64,000 nucleotides of DNA from Eledone cirrhosa (Eukaryota). Below the pieces are notes generated by a model. That model saw only the letters and a list, made by a program, of their open reading frames with translations, ran no database searches and was not told where the DNA came from. The position numbers were made by a program, and so were the translations under genes. How positions within the stretch are numbered: position 1 is the first letter of the stretch; each line of letters begins with the position of its first letter. Shown one piece after another: positions 28,775 to 53,435 of this stretch. Location: positions 104,718,001-104,782,000 of the forward strand of contig OZ024745.1 in assembly GCA_964016885.1 (NCBI GenBank), written 5' to 3'.

Positions 28775-28856
28775 ACTCCAACTAATTAGTTTCTGCAATG
28801 GGATAAAGACAGTTACGTAATCTAACTGTCGAGAATTCATTGCGTCATCAGGGAGT
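28775..28856 (-). ncRNA. Hammerhead ribozyme with extended stem II
   Basis: Minus strand reads ACTCC-CTGATGA-C-GCAATG..GACAGTTA/TAACTGTC..CATTGC-A-GAAA-CTAATTAG-TT-GGAGT. Stem III is palindromic; GUU site. Confidence 0.82.
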
Positions 28857-29012
28857 CTATTCTCAGCTAAGTCTCCAGGCAATGCGCGGACACTGGCATA
28901 TATATATATATATATAAGCAATGAGTTATTTAATTTGTTGATTATTCAACAACAGAACTCAAAACGTTAAGTTCTAGTTTTGAATATGTCACTATCTGTT
29001 AAACAACTTTTG

Positions 29013-45067: not shown

Positions 45068-45096
45068 ATATATATATATATACACACATATATATA

Positions 45097-46420
45097 TACA
45101 ACAATTTCGACATCACCATGGGTTCGTCAGATTCAGCTCAACTGACTGACTTGGTTGGAATTTTCACTCTTTAAACCGAAAAATTCCTCAACTTTGCGGT
45201 GGAATTTATCGCGATGATGCTCTTTTTACTGTCTCTAATTGTAACAAAATAAACTTTAATATTAAGAAAAATATACTTAAAAATTCGAATCTAATGCCAA
45301 CTATTATAATAATGCGCTATCTAGGGCTGGATATCCAGACAAAATTAGGTCTACTAAGGAAACTAATCTTGGCAGAGCTTATAGTAACTCTATTAATGTA
45401 GCTAGTAATAATCATACCACTAACAAAAGGAGGAGACCTAGATATAAAAATATCCTTTGGTACAACGCTCCCTTCTCTCTTTCCGTTATTAATAATATCC
45501 CTAAATTATTTTTTAGGGATTTATATAACAGCTTCCTTCCTTCACATATATATAGCAAGATTTTCAATAAGCATACTATTAAATTCTCATATTCTACTAC
45601 CTCGAACATTTCTAATATTATCTCAAGACATAATTCTAAAATATTAAAGAATAACTCATATGCATCCAACCATGAGAGTCATAATAATAACACTATAAGG
45701 CCCGACGTCAATGTAAACTCTAGGCAAAATAACACAAGTATAAATACGACGTCAAACGTAACTTTGAGGAATGCTTCAAATAGTAATGTAAATCTGGAAA
45801 CTTTAGCACCTCCTTTAGTTAATTCCACCACTCCAGTTCCTAATATAATTAACCCTGGGCCACTTGCCAATAACACTGTAAATAATCTTAATCGTAAATG
45901 CAACTGCCCTATTAGAACTAATTGTCCTCTTAGTAATTTTTGTCTCGATAAAAACCTAGTATACGAATGTAAAGTGGTAACTAGTACAATACCTATACCT
46001 ACATTGACTCTACTTCTACCTCTTTTAAAGCAAGATTCTATAATCATTCTTCTACATTTAAATATCCACTTAAAAGGACCAGCACCGCACTCTCAGAACT
46101 TATTTGGTCCTTAAAAGACAAACACATTAATTACGAAATTTCTTGGCGTAAAATCTACAACGCATCTCCATACTCCAATGCTTCCATATCTAGTGTTTGT
46201 AATTTATGTATAGTTGAAAAATTTACCATTATCTCGAATTTCAACTCTATAATAAATAAAATAACAGATTTATTTGGTCTTTGCAATCATAAATCCTTCA
46301 AGACCTTTCACAAAGTATATAGCTTTGTCCTATAACATATTCCACGAATAACGGTTAATGTTTTATACATATTTTTTACACATATTTCATTATATTCTAC
46401 AATGTATTAATTTAGTTTAG
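45097..46420 (+). mobile_element. Degraded Naiad-type Penelope-like element (RT + GIY-YIG)
   Basis: [49 protein letters not shown] and CNLCIVEK; frameshifted. Confidence 0.88.
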
Positions 46421-46477
46421 TAAAAGCATTTTAGATAGGATTATACCTGAAACTAGAAGTTTGGCCCCTCTTGCACT

Positions 46478-47290
46478 GTGGAACAATTCTTTCGCGGTGA
46501 TTGATTGGTTCAACAGCATATGTAACAAGGAACATTGCCGTTTTATCCAATTCGACATCAATAATTACTACTCCTCCATCACTTTACCACTTCTCCTTAG
46601 AGCTATCAATTTCGCTAAAACACTCACAGTGGTTAAGGATTTCGAAGTTGATGTCATCCTCAATGCCCGTAAATCGGTGATTATTTTCGACGACTCTATT
46701 TGGATTAAAAAATCTAATAGTACCCCATTCGACGTGAGTATGGGCGCCAACGATTCTGCGGAGGTTACTGATCTTATCGGCCTTTTCCTTCTTTTCTCTA
46801 TCAAGGAAGAATTCCCCAACGTGGGCGGTGGTTTGTACTGTGATGACGGTCTTTTGACCATGACAAAGTGCGGCCCACGTGCTTGCGACAGGTTCAGAAA
46901 AGAACTCACAGCCTTCTTTAAAGGCTTCAACCTCTCCATACAGGTTGAGGCCAACCTCTCGGTCGTTAATTACCTCGACGTTACCCTCGATTTGTCGAAT
47001 GGCTTGCACTACCCGTATAGAAAGCCGATTAATTTCATAAGTAAGCATTCTAACCATCCTGCCAGCATAACCAAGATCCTGGTAAGAAACGTTTCTTTGA
47101 GGCTTTCCCGTCTATCTACAAACGAGCATATTTTCAACGACCATTCCATATATTACAATGAAGCTCTTGTTTGGAGTGGATTTGTCGATAAGGTAGCTTA
47201 TACAGAGTACGAGAATAAACCTAGGAAAAATAGATCCCGACGCACGGCGACCAAGAAGATGTCATCATTGTTTACGATGGACAACCAAGA
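46478..47290 (+). mobile_element. Naiad-type PLE reverse-transcriptase fragment (different subfamily)
   Basis: FIQFDINNYYSSI, FDVSMGANDSAEVTDLIG, GLYCDDGL, VNYLDVTLDL and SNHP in ORF 46461-47408. Confidence 0.9.
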
Positions 47291-47312
47291 GATATATATA
47301 TATGTATACATA

Positions 47313-47400
<88 letters not shown>

Positions 47401-48985
47401 CGGGATAATAGGTTATCGTTATAGGCAGTCCACTTAGATGTAGTCCAGTTAAAGTACTCTGTGTTGTGGATGATATTAACGTATGGCTTAGTTTGACTCA
47501 ACAAGACGTTTCCATAGTGATGTTGCGAGTTCGCGGTGATTTCTATGTAGGTTATACTTGGAGTAATAATAATTCAAGAAAGAAGAGTGACATGGTTGGC
47601 TATACAATAAGGGCTTTATTCACATTGCTGACAATTGTTTCTTTGATCTGGTAGGTCTAGAGTTCGCTAATCGCTTGATGTTGCGTCAATCGATCTCCAA
47701 TACTTTGTTTATAACCAGTCGTTTCACCAGAGCGTGTGGAAGTGAGGAAAATACGCAAGGCATGGCGTTTATAGAGGAGTGGTGTTAAACCAGAACAATA
47801 ATATCAATAATAAAATAACTAGATACTGAATAGTTAAAATAATAACATTAATATAAGTAAGAAATAGAGTGTAATGATAAATCTAGCATATTAAACGAAC
47901 TGATATGATACAGATGTATGAAATTGACATGTGAAAACTACTATAGGGTACATTAGATGTAGTATTAAAGTGGTGAAGAGATAACTGGTAAAATGTACTT
48001 GGAGTCAGGATTTAGGAGTAATTATGAGGGATATAAGTGTGCTGTAGGTCTAAAAGCACACTAGCAATAAACCGGAGATTGATTTATAGTTTGACAGATA
48101 AGTATTTCCGTTGTATCAACTTAGTGAGATTGATAGAGTGGGTGTATAGAGGTATGTGGTTCTTATGTGGTATTAAGTGAAGTTGTAGATTCGGTATTTA
48201 AAGGTTTAGGTGGCCTATTCTAAAAGTTGGGATTGTTAGTTTGAATCATGGGGGTTTAGTTTTCACAACATCAATGACAAATAGTGTATAAATAAGACAA
48301 TAATAACAACAATAAAAGTAATAAAAACAATAAAATATGCATGGTAAATAGAGAGAACATGATGAATAAAATTAGGGATACATTGAGATGATCATAATAA
48401 TAAAAATAAGAAAATAAGATTTCAAGGAGTGTAGGAGTAATAAGATAATGTACTTAGAATTAAGTTCATCTGTTAGAGATCATGAGTGCTAATATGAGAT
48501 ATGTAGATATAATTGTTTGGTCCGAAAGAATAAACAACTACAAAGATGGGATTGATTTATGGGCTGACAAGATAATTGTAGACATTACTGCCCCATCCTG
48601 GTGGTATATATGTAGGGAGGCTAGAAGGTGTTTATAGAAGATTATGGTTCTGAAGTGGGCTGTGTGAGAATGCGGATTTCATATGTTAAATGCTAAGTGA
48701 TTTTCCATTAATATAGGGGATGCTGGTTCGAATCACGGTGGTTTAAATCTCGTAAATTTAGTACCAATCCATTGACCTTTCTATTTTGCTGTTGAGTAGC
48801 ATTTTATCGTACCTTAAGATATGTAGCAATTCAAGGTTGTAGAGCCCGCAATGGGACATACCGCTGCTATAGGCCTTTGCGGCCGCTAATTTCGACCAGC
48901 TAATATTGTAATCAAGATTTTTGTCCTTAAGTTGCCAGATTTTATTGGCAAGGGTTGTAGAATTTACCAGTGCACGGTTCTTCAA
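47401..48985 (-). mobile_element. PLE 3' portion (GIY-YIG C-terminus plus long 3' UTR)
   Basis: ORF 48758-48985 (STTLANKIWQLKDKNLDYNISW..AYSSG..CGL) aligns to the endonuclease end in 59018-60307. The UTR extent is inferred from the (TA)n boundary. Confidence 0.7.
47627..47733 (-). ncRNA. Candidate degenerate hammerhead with very long stem II
   Basis: Minus strand reads GCT-CTGGTGA-(~82 nt, CTGGT/ACCAG)-GAAA-CAATTG-TC-AGC; the core has A6>G. Confidence 0.4.
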
Positions 48986-48989
48986 CTCT

Positions 48990-50115
48990 ATAATAAATAG
49001 ACGTACAGATTTATTTGGTCTTTGTAATCATAAATCCTTCAAGACCTTCCACAAAGTATATAACTAATGCCCTATAACATATTCCACGAATAAGGGTTAA
49101 TTTTTTACACATATATATTTTTTTACACATATATTTTTTTCACACATTTTTTTCACACATATTTCATTATATTCTACAATGTATTAATTCAGTTTTCTCA
49201 GAATATTTTAAGCCTTTCACCTTTTTCTCTATAACCTTAAATTTTCGTTCAAACCTTCTTAGATTTTGTAAACAAACTATGACGTCATATGTTTTTCTAC
49301 GTTTATAAATCATTCTAGCAATTTCCTTCATTTACTTGTTCATATAAAATATTAATTAAATAGTATACCCCACATATATAGATTTTTAATAGAAATTTTT
49401 AATTTTGACATAGATAGACTATTCTTATTTTTATTTTTTTTATTCTATCTTATTTTATTTTATTTTATTTTAAAAACCTTTTTTAATTATTAATTTTTAA
49501 TTTTTAATTTTTAATATTTGATTTCTGATTTTCGATTTTTAACTTTTAATTTTTAGTTCTAATTTCCAACTCTCATTCATAACTTCCACTGTGAAACCAT
49601 GATACCTAGAATTAAGTATATTTTCTCTTAGAGGTTGATGGTCAATTATACTGTCCATGCTTAATGAGGGGTAGTATTGAGACCTATTGATACTCACACT
49701 CTCCCATCCCCACTGGCTTTCGGCTAAACTGCAACTGACGGGGTGGCTAGCAGAAAGCTATATATAACAGGCCTGAATGGGCCATTGTTTGTTTGAGAGG
49801 GGGAACTGATTAGGCGAATTTTGTTGAAATCGGCGGTAGCTAATGGTCAACTTCGGACCTGCGCCTGCGCAGACCGGTGGGAGTGAATTGGTACTCACAA
49901 GGGAACGGATGAAGAACCCAAGAGCACACACTTTGTCTGTTCCCATGTCGATTCAATTTGGATTGCCTCGGAAACATAACCTTATTATGTAACAAGCTGT
50001 CTGATGATGTCGCGTCACTGGCGCACGGAACAGTGTGGCCACTGTCGCATTGAAATATATATCACACCATTATTATTAAAGGACTTGAACATCTGAAACT
50101 ACTTTGCTTTCCCTT

Positions 50116-50120
<5 letters not shown>
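48990..50120 (+). mobile_element. PLE 3' end/UTR of the 45097-46420 family
   Basis: 48990-49195 matches 46255-46420 (ACAGATTTATTTGGTCTTTG.AATCATAAATCCTTCAAGACC...). It ends with an HHR and a short tail at (TA)n. Confidence 0.8.
49996..50068 (+). ncRNA. Hammerhead ribozyme with branched stem II
   Basis: GCTGT-CTGATGA (50001), hairpins GCGTCA/TGGCGC and ACAGTG/CACTGT, GAAA (50052), TATATA-TC, ACACC. AUC site; stem I is short. Confidence 0.65.
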
Positions 50121-50167
<47 letters not shown>

Positions 50168-50177
50168 TATACATATA

Positions 50178-50351
<174 letters not shown>

Positions 50352-50674
50352 CATATATATACATATATATGTGTATATATATATATATATATACATATAT
50401 ATACATATATATGTGTATATATATATATATACATATATATACATATATATGTGTATATATATATATATACATATATATACATATATATGTGTATATATAT
50501 ATATATATATATACATATATATACATATATATGTGTATATATATGGAAAGTTATATTTAAATTGTTGGGTTACAACTAGTAAATATTTATAACTGATATA
50601 AAAGCACTCGACAAATATTTGGAGTATATTTACAATATTAAATAAATGGAAACTATATTTATAAAACCATATTT

Positions 50675-50940: not shown

Positions 50941-51125
50941 TGTTTCTACTTTTGGCACAAGGCCAGCAATTACCCAGTGCATTACTGGTACTTTATTTTA
51001 TCGACCCCGTAAGGATGAAAGGCAAAGTCAACCTCGGCGGGATTTGAACTCAGATCGTAAAGGGACGTAACTATGCTTGAAAGCATGGCGTCCGACCCTC
51101 TACCGATACTGCCAATCCACCACCC
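50941..51125 (-). mobile_element. Meta-like tRNA SINE with TAAT target duplication
   Basis: Full-length copy; TAAT at 50937-50940 and 51126-51129. Confidence 0.9.
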
Positions 51126-51176
51126 TAATGAAATAAATATGGTTTTATAAATATAGTTTCCATTTATTTAATATTG

Positions 51177-52169: not shown

Positions 52170-52600
52170 TCATCATCATCATTCGGTGGCTTCAGCTGAA
52201 ATGGACTCAACAATTGATCTCCATGTGGGTCTGTCATTCATTGCCGTTGTCAAGTCCTGGATTTCAATACCAGAATCTCTGGAGATGACATCGAGACAGG
52301 AGAGCTTGCACTCCCTGTTATTAGTGACTGCTTGTGGTTTCCAAAGCACTAATGGGGACACAGCCTCATAGGTGGCACGATAGCAATGACCAGCAAATCT
52401 TACTCTCCATTTATGTACAATGACAGATATACATGGGAGGCCGGCATATATCTCTCTCAAAGTCACATGTTGCCAGCTTATGTTCTGAATGTGTTGAAGC
52501 AGGCGAGTGTAAGTGCCATCAAGGTGTTTTTATTGTTTGGCTGAAAGCTTCCATGTTTCACTTCCATATAGCAAGATTGGCTGAATTGTTACTTGGAATC
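52170..52600 (-). mobile_element. Degraded RTE/RTEX-like 3' fragment
   Basis: RVRFAGHCYR..LVLWKP..MNDRPTWR followed by a (GAT)n tail. Confidence 0.8.
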
Positions 52601-53435
52601 ATATGACCAGTCACATGATATCATCAAACAGTATCTTATGTAATAAGGTAACGTTTCTAAGGCAATCCAATCCAAGGGAACGAACAGAAATGATATTTTC
52701 ATAGCCGAAAATGGATTTCAGCAAGACATTTCATTTCATGATTGTTTTCATGATAGAACTGAGATACCTATCATTAAAACACCCAAGAAACCTTTTATGA
52801 GATACAACCTTGTAGGAGGTCAGCAAGAGCTGTACATTTTCCTTTCACATTTTAATGAGTGCAGTCCAATAACTGAGACCAGAATAAAAGTAATGAACAT
52901 ACGAAGGATGCAACATTGATTTTGTTGCTTAACCCTTTAGCATTTACATTACTCTATATTTACTATTATATTTTCATGGTAAAGGCTTTATCTCACATAG
53001 TTTCAAATCTATAAGATTTGATATTATTTATTTTGAGAAAAATACCTTAACATAAGTATGAGCAGCCAGTTATCGCCGGTTTGTAGAGAAAGAGGTTAGA
53101 GAATTCTGGCCAGATATGGCCAGTTTAAATGTTAAAGCATGGGTTCAAACTCAACTTCTGGCATTATGTTTTTAGCCACCAAATGCTATTTTGTTAGTTT
53201 CAGTCAATCCACGTGAAAATAGATATTACTCACTTTTGCACACTTAGCGTTTGCAAAAATATTAATTTTCTTTATGTTGCAATTTCAATTTATGCATAAG
53301 CATCCATAGACAAAATAAAGCTTATATATATATATATATATACAATATATAGGTGTGTGTATATATATATATATATGTATTATCTTCATTACCATCATTA
53401 TCATCTAATATATGCATACATACATACACATGCAT

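What the first reader, a model, noticed from the sequence alone, without database searches (positions are those of the whole stretch)
49690..49950. Densely structured GC-rich domain in a PLE 3' UTR just upstream of the hammerhead
Seen, within otherwise very AT-rich UTR: CTCTC/GAGAG enclosing CCATCCC/GGGGTGG, a GGCT-TTCG-GCT hairpin, TAGC-AGAAA-GCTA and AACA-GGCC/GGCC-TGTT. These are followed by GGTC/GACC, CTGCGC/GCGCAG, GAGTG/TACTC and a 9-bp GGGAACGGA/TCTGTTCCC helix. An unpaired TATATA linker sits at about 49761. Established: PLE RTs are the closest relatives of telomerase RT. Inference (speculative): an undescribed cis-RNA such as an RT-binding scaffold, an IRES or a second ribozyme. The TA linker could pair with or template the (TA)n target, or simply be the pseudo-LTR TATA box.
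Basis: partly seen in the sequence, partly recalled or inferred. Interest (0 to 1): 0.7.

Follow-up and report, generated by a model that had tools for sequence, protein, structure and literature searches.

The report
Conserved hairpin in protein-less Penelope parasite
The GC-rich block belongs to a protein-less, hammerhead-bearing jumping-gene family with thousands of copies; only one 75-base hairpin keeps its fold through the family's history, and a nearby DNA motif likely marks the element's promoter, so this is not a large new ribozyme or translation signal.

Summary
The listed stems are in the sequence, but the block is not the 3' UTR of the Penelope-like element (PLE) beside it: 0 of 29 other copies of that Hydra-type family carry it. 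The window is a chimera. The block belongs to a separate, ORF-less 1.3-kb repeat with a type I hammerhead, pseudo-LTR tandems, inverted truncated copies and (TA)n targets (2,223 exact hammerhead-frame matches in the genome). Ten subfamilies, down to about 60% identity, allowed a covariation test. The 5' half (49690-49838) folds no better than shuffles and has no shared structure; TATATAA is in 2 of 10 subfamilies. One rod hairpin (49885-49959) folds in all 10, with four two-sided changes, and 5' truncations pile up at its foot (12 seen, 4.8 expected). The CTGCGC/GCGCAG 'stem' is an exact NRF1 site, kept in 9 of 10; two other PLE families here carry NRF1 sites upstream of their hammerheads, two do not. 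Best reading: likely promoter plus one conserved RNA hairpin in an unusually long retrozyme-like element. IRES, second ribozyme and TA-templating are unsupported; protein binding to the hairpin is untested. The scan holds no look-alike sequence. Interest 0.38.

The parts
48954..49490 (+). 3' end of a Hydra-type PLE ('family A'): endonuclease tail and AT-rich 3' UTR, cut off before its own hammerhead. Not part of the element that carries the block.
   Evidence: 29 other copies match to about 49430-49555 and continue with a different UTR and a minimal hammerhead (core found in 23 of 30 loci). Linker CxCX5C and C-terminal CxxC..E..N..CxH read in window ORFs 45281-46335 as described in PMC8557442 section 11.
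49480..49491 (+). AT-rich overlap where family A sequence switches to the ORF-less family; likely a template switch or recombination.
   Evidence: Side-by-side copies of both families; match ends.
49480..50119 (+). 5'-truncated copy (3' half) of an ORF-less, hammerhead-bearing 1.33-kb repeat, subfamily B3.
   Evidence: 39 other full-length matches at 91-94% among the 40 best of 2,936 candidates; full unit and pseudo-LTR layout; tree of 164 copies.
49690..49838 (+). 5' half of the block: GC-rich, fast-evolving, no fold shared across subfamilies; local stems come and go.
   Evidence: z = -0.28; consensus-fold index 0.26, z = 0; z from -1.3 to +1.1 in ten subfamilies; helix tallies.
49747..49760 (+). 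Sequence motif whose core TAGCAGTAA is invariant in all ten subfamily majorities while its 4-bp hairpin holds in only 3; role unexplained, possibly a protein site.
49761..49767 (+). TATATAA: present in 2 of 10 subfamilies, at the edge of a deletion of about 35 bases relative to the oldest subfamilies; not a conserved element.
49843..49849 (+). ATGGTCA, invariant in all ten subfamilies, with no conserved pairing partner found; possible factor site (not identified).
49861..49870 (.). GCGCCTGCGC: exact NRF1 consensus (GCGCNTGCGC); likely promoter element.
   Evidence: Exact in 9 of 10 subfamilies, one mismatch in the oldest; consensus and the same 10-mer in the TFAM promoter from PMC10810270 passages.
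49885..49959 (+). Conserved rod hairpin, 24 consensus pairs (lower stem 49885-91/49953-59; upper stem 49901-14/49931-44), variable 14-24-base loop.
   Evidence: Folds in all ten subfamily majorities at -30 to -38 kcal/mol with four two-sided changes; 13 real copies 92.6% paired; truncation peak at its 3' arm.
49996..50068 (+). Type I hammerhead: stem I 49996-50000/50064-68, core 50001-07, long branched stem II 50008-51, GAAA 50052-55, one-pair stem III with palindromic loop, predicted cut after C50063. This copy has a mismatch in stem I.
   Evidence: Read from the sequence; stem I holds in 10 of 10 subfamilies and stem II covaries. Missed by Rfam.
50120..50545 (.). (TA)n tract at the 3' end, the usual target of this family.

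Best explanation
The block is the pseudo-LTR portion of an ORF-less, hammerhead-bearing Penelope-type repeat, and holds a likely RNA polymerase II promoter (NRF1 site) followed by one conserved 75-base RNA hairpin; the rest has no conserved fold. Shown: the element is non-coding, multiplies with PLE-type insertion structures into (TA)n, and keeps the hairpin and the NRF1 motif through ten subfamilies. Inferred steps: (1) NRF1 bound in an upstream pseudo-LTR copy likely starts transcription just downstream of 49870; (2) the RNA runs through hairpin and hammerhead into the next unit; (3) the protein of an autonomous PLE, likely of the Hydra type, copies it in trans; (4) the hairpin likely works as a self-contained folding unit that keeps upstream GC-rich RNA from mispairing with the hammerhead domain, may be contacted by the borrowed protein, and likely stalls the reverse transcriptase, which would explain the many short pseudo-LTRs that begin at its foot.
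For: Architecture: 27 of 30 full-length loci have the unit's own 3' end directly upstream, 2 more an inverted copy; arrays of 4-5 units with 1,322-base period; no ORF and no Hydra-profile match inside the units. Hairpin: consensus-fold index 0.81, z = -6.7 for the 3' half, close to the hammerhead control (0.84, -5.4); stepwise paths C-G>U.G>U-A and A-U>G.U>G-C, whose wobbles work on the + strand only; 7 of 9 changes from a paired state keep pairing where 0.34 is expected (p = 0.009); 14 changes in 36 stem columns against 16 in 16 loop columns (p = 0.008); 4 two-sided pairs in 13 real copies. Truncations: 12 of 77 breakpoints in 49940-55 against 4.8 expected (p = 0.004), 8 of them in 49944-49. 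Promoter: NRF1 motif kept while its flanking pair breaks in 3 of 10 subfamilies; 3 of 4 NRF1 sites outside this lineage in 1.05 Mb of fetched loci lie within about 110 bases upstream of other PLE hammerheads; one autonomous PLE family has NRF1 and YY1-like motifs there (6,609 pattern matches); the Drosophila Penelope promoter lies in the pseudo-LTR and is TATA-less (PMC2377424 passages); NRF1 acts from upstream of start sites (PMC11269187 passages).
Against: No transcript, start site, binding or cleavage data. The NRF1 comparison rests on two other families only; family A and another Hydra-type family have no such motif upstream of their hammerheads. The NRF1 palindrome also sits in a hairpin that shows one U-A>U.G>C-G path and an outer helix, so it may be kept as RNA. 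CpG observed/expected in the block is 0.47-0.75, not the highest in the unit. The ten subfamilies are one ladder, so events are few, and column shuffles favour any conserved inverted repeat. The truncation window was chosen after a first look at partly the same loci, and a second peak at 49900-09 (9 events) suggests fold-back or microhomology effects. No autonomous partner was found; likeness to family A is borderline (p from under 0.002 to 0.44 over 12 comparisons). The hairpin's role is a guess.
Confidence: 0.55

Rival explanations
1. The hairpin, with the neighbouring GC-rich palindrome stem, is the main handle by which the ORF-less RNA captures a PLE reverse transcriptase, in the manner of a telomerase-RNA protein-binding domain.
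For: A non-coding parasite must carry a protein-recognition signal; the hairpin is the best-conserved structure beside the hammerhead; the PLE hammerhead tested in vitro cleaves only with protein present (PMC11167929).
Against: In the one PLE reconstituted in vitro the needed RNA lies in the first 172 bases of the ORF and the full pseudo-LTR is dispensable (PMC11167929); the matching region here is the unit's tail and 5' body, not the block. Autonomous family A lacks the block. The loop is not conserved in sequence. No template, pseudoknot or Rfam likeness to telomerase RNA.
Confidence: 0.2
2. The structure matters only as general self-pairing of a retrozyme-type circular or unit-length RNA (stability, or a substrate for double-strand RNA enzymes); the NRF1 match is a by-product of a GC-rich hairpin.
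For: Retrozyme circles are predicted to be highly self-paired (PMC7229834 passages); different long stems appear in the 5' half of different subfamilies; the rod has pre-miRNA size (weak Rfam match, 17.6 bits against a cut-off of 80).
Against: The 5' half folds no better than shuffles in any subfamily, so pairing is not general; the NRF1 motif outlasts its flanking pair and recurs in unrelated PLEs without a surrounding hairpin.
Confidence: 0.15
3. Everything in the block acts as DNA: factor sites and an old inverted duplication that forms a cruciform or a single-strand DNA hairpin; no RNA structure is selected.
For: Minus-strand folds are also favourable in several subfamilies (z down to -5.0 in the oldest); fold-back on cDNA could produce the breakpoint peaks.
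Against: Kept changes are G.U-type on the + strand and would be A.C mismatches on the other; the window copy folds on + only.
Confidence: 0.06
4. The whole 260-base block is one new catalytic RNA or IRES.
For: Whole-block z of -2.25; no Rfam match; short invariant sequence motifs exist.
Against: No shared fold in the 5' half; indels of about 35 bases between subfamilies; no ORF to translate; the conserved part is a plain rod.
Confidence: 0.04

Closest known systems
Non-LTR retrozymes of animals (Cervera and de la Pena 2020, PMC7229834; Li, Clavereau and Pollet 2026, 10.64898/2026.07.22.740005)
   Same: Non-coding, one type I hammerhead per unit, head-to-tail repeats, proposed derivation from PLE pseudo-LTRs; a U.U at the base of helix II is also described for one axolotl hammerhead.
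   Different: Unit is 1.3 kb or longer against about 300 bp (the 2026 pipeline looked for periods up to 1,000); most copies are dispersed, 5'-truncated and inverted like PLE insertions; stem II is about 44 bases and branched; expression and circles are untested.
Pseudo-LTRs of EN+ Penelope-like elements, Hydra clade (Craig et al. 2021, PMC8557442; Cervera and de la Pena 2014, PMC4209133)
   Same: Partial tandems, inverted truncated copy, optional 3' tail, (TA)n targets, hammerhead with short palindromic helix III.
   Different: No RT or endonuclease; no autonomous partner found; the local Hydra-type families have minimal hammerheads and no GC-rich block.
Penelope internal promoter of Drosophila virilis (Schostak et al. 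2008, PMC2377424)
   Same: Regulatory sequence in the 3' UTR / pseudo-LTR drives the downstream copy; TATA-less.
   Different: That promoter is an Inr/DPE type with an intron; here the candidate is an NRF1-type GC-rich promoter and is untested.
RNA recognised by the Anolis Poseidon protein (Frangieh et al. 2024, PMC11167929)
   Same: A PLE protein uses structured RNA near the hammerhead, and the two start sites explain the 'tail', which this family also shows.
   Different: The needed RNA lies downstream of the hammerhead; the hairpin here lies upstream.

Membership tests
3' UTR of the adjacent Hydra-type PLE | Block present in other copies of that family | tested here: not met
   0 of 29 other loci continue into the block; one holds a separate 79% fragment elsewhere in the locus
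Non-autonomous PLE | Partial-tandem pseudo-LTR upstream of the full unit | tested here: met
   27 of 30 loci
Non-autonomous PLE | Inverted 5'-truncated copy, optional 3' tail, (TA)n target | tested here: met
   Inverted copies and two 3' ends about 68 bases apart
Non-autonomous PLE | No RT/endonuclease ORF of its own | tested here: met
Non-autonomous PLE | Ends shared with an identified autonomous partner | tested here: inconclusive
   Short shared motifs with family A, borderline scores; no ORF-bearing relative among 19 matches to the oldest 5' region
Non-LTR retrozyme | Type I hammerhead in each unit of a tandem repeat | tested here: met
   Arrays of 4-5 units in L235/L236; most other copies are partial tandems
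Non-LTR retrozyme | Short monomer of about 300 bp | tested here: not met
   1,322-1,326 bases against PMC7229834 passages
Non-LTR retrozyme | Self-cleaved, circular RNA expressed | not testable with these tools
   needs RNA work
Type I hammerhead ribozyme | CUGANGA and GAAA boxes, NUH triplet, helix I | tested here: met
   Read in the window; helix I holds in 10 of 10 subfamilies; this copy has one helix I mismatch
Type I hammerhead ribozyme | G10.1-C11.1 pair closing helix II next to the core | tested here: not met
   U opposite U, or extra bases before GAAA, in the subfamily alignment; activity uncertain
NRF1-type promoter | GCGCNTGCGC motif | tested here: met
   49861-70; 9 of 10 subfamilies
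NRF1-type promoter | Factor bound and start site downstream | not testable with these tools
   needs ChIP, CAGE or a reporter
IRES | An ORF downstream to be translated | tested here: not met
Known ribozymes, telomerase RNA, other Rfam families | Covariance-model match at the family threshold | tested here: not met
   0 matches at gathering score; best 18 bits. Rfam also misses the real hammerhead here, so this test is weak
SECIS element | Conserved AUGA/GA core in the 3' UTR of a UGA-containing ORF (features recalled) | tested here: not met
   18.1 bits against 50; AUGA absent in the four older subfamilies; no ORF

The most novel reading that the evidence does not exclude
A long-lived lineage of kilobase-sized, protein-less Penelope parasites has kept a dedicated hairpin beside its hammerhead as the handle for a borrowed telomerase-related reverse transcriptase, with the same hairpin setting pseudo-LTR length by stalling the enzyme, and is transcribed from a housekeeping-type NRF1 promoter that unrelated PLEs in this genome also use. 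It would give a compact, covariation-mapped RNA for testing how PLE proteins choose templates in trans.
Probability: 0.2. Interest if true: 0.65.

Novelty: new variant of a known kind. Interest (0 to 1): 0.38.

Why it matters
How PLE proteins recognise their RNA, and what drives PLE transcription outside Drosophila, is barely known: the papers read describe one PLE reconstituted in vitro and one promoter dissected. An ORF-less family that survived ten rounds of subfamily turnover shows which cis elements are kept when no coding constraint hides them: an NRF1 motif, one hairpin, a hammerhead with an enlarged stem II and a 3' tail. That narrows experiments to a few hundred bases. It also extends retrozymes from about 0.3 kb to 1.3 kb. 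It does not give a new ribozyme, an IRES or a telomerase-like template.

Tried and rejected
Rfam at gathering score on the window and at E up to 10 on the block and on a full unit: nothing above threshold. A first reading of the hammerhead with GGAA as the second box was dropped once the true helix I partner was found. Pfam did not recognise the PLE proteins; a profile from 10 of 18 homologues was used instead. Metagenome scan with a conserved motif: 0 matches. Sequencing-run search: no RNA holder listed, which says nothing about expression; no reads were laid. Search for an autonomous partner: the ORF next to one copy (L279/L381) is a separate Hydra-type insertion with its own hammerhead; none among relatives of the oldest 5' region. 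A long 5' hairpin closing on the TAGCAGTAA motif looked compensated between three subfamilies but its C-G/U-A pair is a C.A mismatch in four of the other subfamilies, so it was not accepted. CCATCCC/GGGGTGG shows one C-G>U.G>U-A path in younger subfamilies but holds fully in only 3 of 10. SECIS and pre-miRNA matches are far below threshold. TA-templating was rejected because subfamilies without TATATAA also end in (TA)n. The scan's earlier findings hold no look-alike sequence.

Full report
OBSERVATION. The 261 bases fold at -88.5 kcal/mol, z = -2.25. Split up, 49690-49838 gives z = -0.28, 49838-49962 gives -1.16, and 49883-49962 gives -2.56 on the + strand and +0.32 on the - strand. Rfam finds nothing at threshold, not even the hammerhead.

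WHAT THE BLOCK BELONGS TO. The host genome is 3.0 Gb; I did not determine the species and searched papers on the guess that it is a cephalopod. A search with 49620-50090 gave 2,936 candidates; the 40 best were scored and the 39 other full-length matches are 91-94% identical. None of the 29 other loci fetched continues into the window's upstream sequence beyond about 49400. Conversely, 0 of 29 other copies of the upstream sequence continue into the block; they carry a different UTR and a minimal hammerhead (core in 23 of 30 loci). That upstream family A has the CxCX5C linker and the CxxC..E..N..CxH tail that PMC8557442 gives for the Hydra clade (section 11 and passages read); I built no tree. 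The window is therefore a chimera, joined in an AT-rich overlap at about 49480-91. The block's own family is a 1,326-base unit without an ORF. In 27 of 30 loci chosen by its 5' start, the unit's own 3' end lies directly upstream, in 2 an inverted copy, in 1 neither. Copies end in (TA)n at one of two points about 68 bases apart. A profile of 10 Hydra-like proteins hits only separate fragments beside the units. This is the PLE insertion pattern without the protein.

THE HAMMERHEAD. Helix I is 49996-50000 with 50064-68, the core 50001-07, GAAA 50052-55, helix III one pair with a palindromic loop, the predicted cut after C50063, and helix II a branched 44-base domain (read). A pattern for this frame has 2,223 exact matches, the reversed control 0; a narrower pattern for the window's own subfamily group has 123. 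Helix I holds in all ten subfamilies and helix II covaries. The usual G-C pair at the base of helix II is missing; PMC7229834 (passages) describes a U.U there in an axolotl hammerhead. Activity is untested.

SUBFAMILIES. Searches with diverged fragments gave older and younger relatives. 164 copies span the block and form a ladder-like tree; 151 of them were grouped into ten subfamilies, the most distant about 60% identical over this region. The oldest group also has the head-to-tail junction and no ORF. One young group forms arrays of 4-5 units, neighbours about 99% identical where compared in register.

COVARIATION. On three family majorities the 5' half has a consensus-fold index of 0.26 (z = 0 against column shuffles), the 3' half 0.81 (z = -6.7), the hammerhead control 0.84 (z = -5.4). 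Each subfamily on its own gives z from -1.3 to +1.1 for the 5' half and -2.0 to -4.3 for the 3' half on the + strand. TATATAA is in 2 of 10. One structure stands out: a rod at 49885-49959 that folds in all ten majorities at -30.4 to -38.3 kcal/mol, with two-sided changes at four pairs, three of them through a G.U step. In its upper stem 7 of 9 changes from a paired state keep pairing (chance 0.34, p = 0.009; events listed by hand), and the stem takes 14 changes in 36 columns against 16 in 16 loop columns (p = 0.008). In 13 real copies, picked by hand to span the subfamilies, 92.6% of cells pair and 4 pairs change on both sides; 14 of 500 shuffles reach that count. Against: an A.A mismatch arose in the stem and stayed, the loop-closing pairs break in the oldest and youngest groups, and the groups are one lineage, not independent samples.

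TRUNCATION POINTS. In 130 loci chosen by hammerhead pattern only, 140 copies carry the core; 57 run beyond the region or the locus edge, 83 have a 5' breakpoint. Twelve of the 77 breakpoints between 49660 and 49999 fall in 49940-55 against 4.8 under a constant rate (p = 0.004); eight fall in 49944-49, at the foot of the GC-rich upper stem. This is where an enzyme copying the RNA 3' to 5' would meet the stem, so I infer that the hairpin forms on the template. Caveats: the window was picked, which shares 30 loci; a second peak of 9 lies in the 5' arm.

PROMOTER. It is exact in 9 of 10 subfamilies, with one mismatch in the oldest; one copy of the oldest group has the perfect palindrome. In 1.05 Mb of fetched loci the script listed 22 further sites; by eye 18 are copies of this lineage that escaped my filter and 4 are not; 3 of the 4 lie upstream of hammerheads of two other PLE families. 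A genome pattern for NRF1 site, 75-105 bases, hammerhead gave 6,609 matches, control 1; all 100 listed belong to one family, an autonomous PLE with RT and GIY-YIG frames (Neptune-type by recalled motifs) whose UTR carries the NRF1 motif between ETS-like and YY1-like motifs (motifs recalled). That is one independent case, not thousands. Family A and another Hydra-type family lack the motif. The Penelope promoter lies in the pseudo-LTR and is TATA-less (PMC2377424 passages); NRF1 sites act upstream and YY1 sites downstream of start sites in human cells (PMC11269187 passages). I put the promoter reading at about even odds or slightly better.

MECHANISM. Shown: non-coding PLE-type repeat, conserved hairpin, conserved NRF1 motif, hammerhead frame. 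Inferred: transcription from the upstream pseudo-LTR, copying in trans by a PLE protein, an insulating or protein-contact role of the hairpin, enzyme stalling at its foot. The partner is not identified; likeness to family A is borderline. In the PLE studied in vitro the protein needs RNA downstream of the hammerhead, and the hammerhead cleaves only with protein (PMC11167929, parts 1-2 of 4), which lowers but does not exclude a binding role for an upstream hairpin.

COMPARISON AND NOVELTY. It works like a non-LTR retrozyme or non-autonomous PLE, both described (PMC7229834 and PMC4209133 passages; 10.64898/2026.07.22.740005 part 1 of 5 and passages; short non-autonomous Penelope elements mentioned in PMC6685494 passages). 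It differs in unit length, in the enlarged helix II and in the conserved upstream hairpin. The paper searches listed no description of this family or of NRF1 motifs in PLE pseudo-LTRs; only listings and the passages named were seen. An octopus repeat annotation (PMC13282606 passages) does not use the words ribozyme or non-autonomous in its main text. I did not open the supplements of PMC8557442 (Hydra families and hammerheads) or PMC13282606, the preprint's supplements are closed, and Dfam and Repbase were not available; the family may be deposited there. Verdict: new variant of a known kind; interest 0.38.

Noticed in passing
L382-L411 (e.g. L383:1480-1620): An abundant autonomous PLE (RT plus GIY-YIG, Neptune-type by recalled motifs) carries ETS-like, NRF1 and YY1-like motifs in its short 3' UTR just upstream of a minimal hammerhead; 6,609 genome matches to the NRF1-hammerhead pattern. 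A cleaner test case for the promoter idea than the block.
   Followed up: partly
L235 and L236: Two opposed head-to-tail arrays of 4-5 full 1.32-kb units each, neighbours about 99% identical where compared in register; could reflect copying of a circular or multimeric RNA, or local duplication.
   Followed up: partly
window 50001-50055: Helix II of the hammerhead is about 44 bases, branched and covarying; in several subfamilies its 3' end is complementary to the catalytic core, which could hold the ribozyme in an off state.
   Followed up: partly
window 45070-49027: Cluster of Hydra-type PLE fragments: RT end plus endonuclease (45070-46335, +), RT piece (46416-47280, +) and the inverted 3' end of another family (47400-49027, -); possibly one composite insertion with several template switches.
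   Followed up: partly
window 52590-52700 (-): Short fragment of the oldest subfamily of the same ORF-less lineage.
   Followed up: yes
window about 50945-51130; many loci such as L003, L005, L016, L021: A roughly 180-base SINE-like repeat is inserted again and again at the same AT-rich spot just 3' of the hammerhead in independent copies of the family; a target preference.
   Followed up: no
L381 and L213:474-1300: Two further Hydra-type PLE families, each with its own minimal hammerhead; the L213 family has an NRF1 motif about 50 bases upstream of it, the L381 family none.
   Followed up: partly
L028:752-1010 (5' start of the full unit, absent from the window): The first 260 bases of the unit are recognisably kept from the oldest to the youngest subfamilies and lie where the in vitro PLE study places the protein-binding region; folding and covariation were not tested.
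   Followed up: no
window about 28790-28860 (-): A hammerhead-like pattern match also seen in L005; not checked.
   Followed up: no
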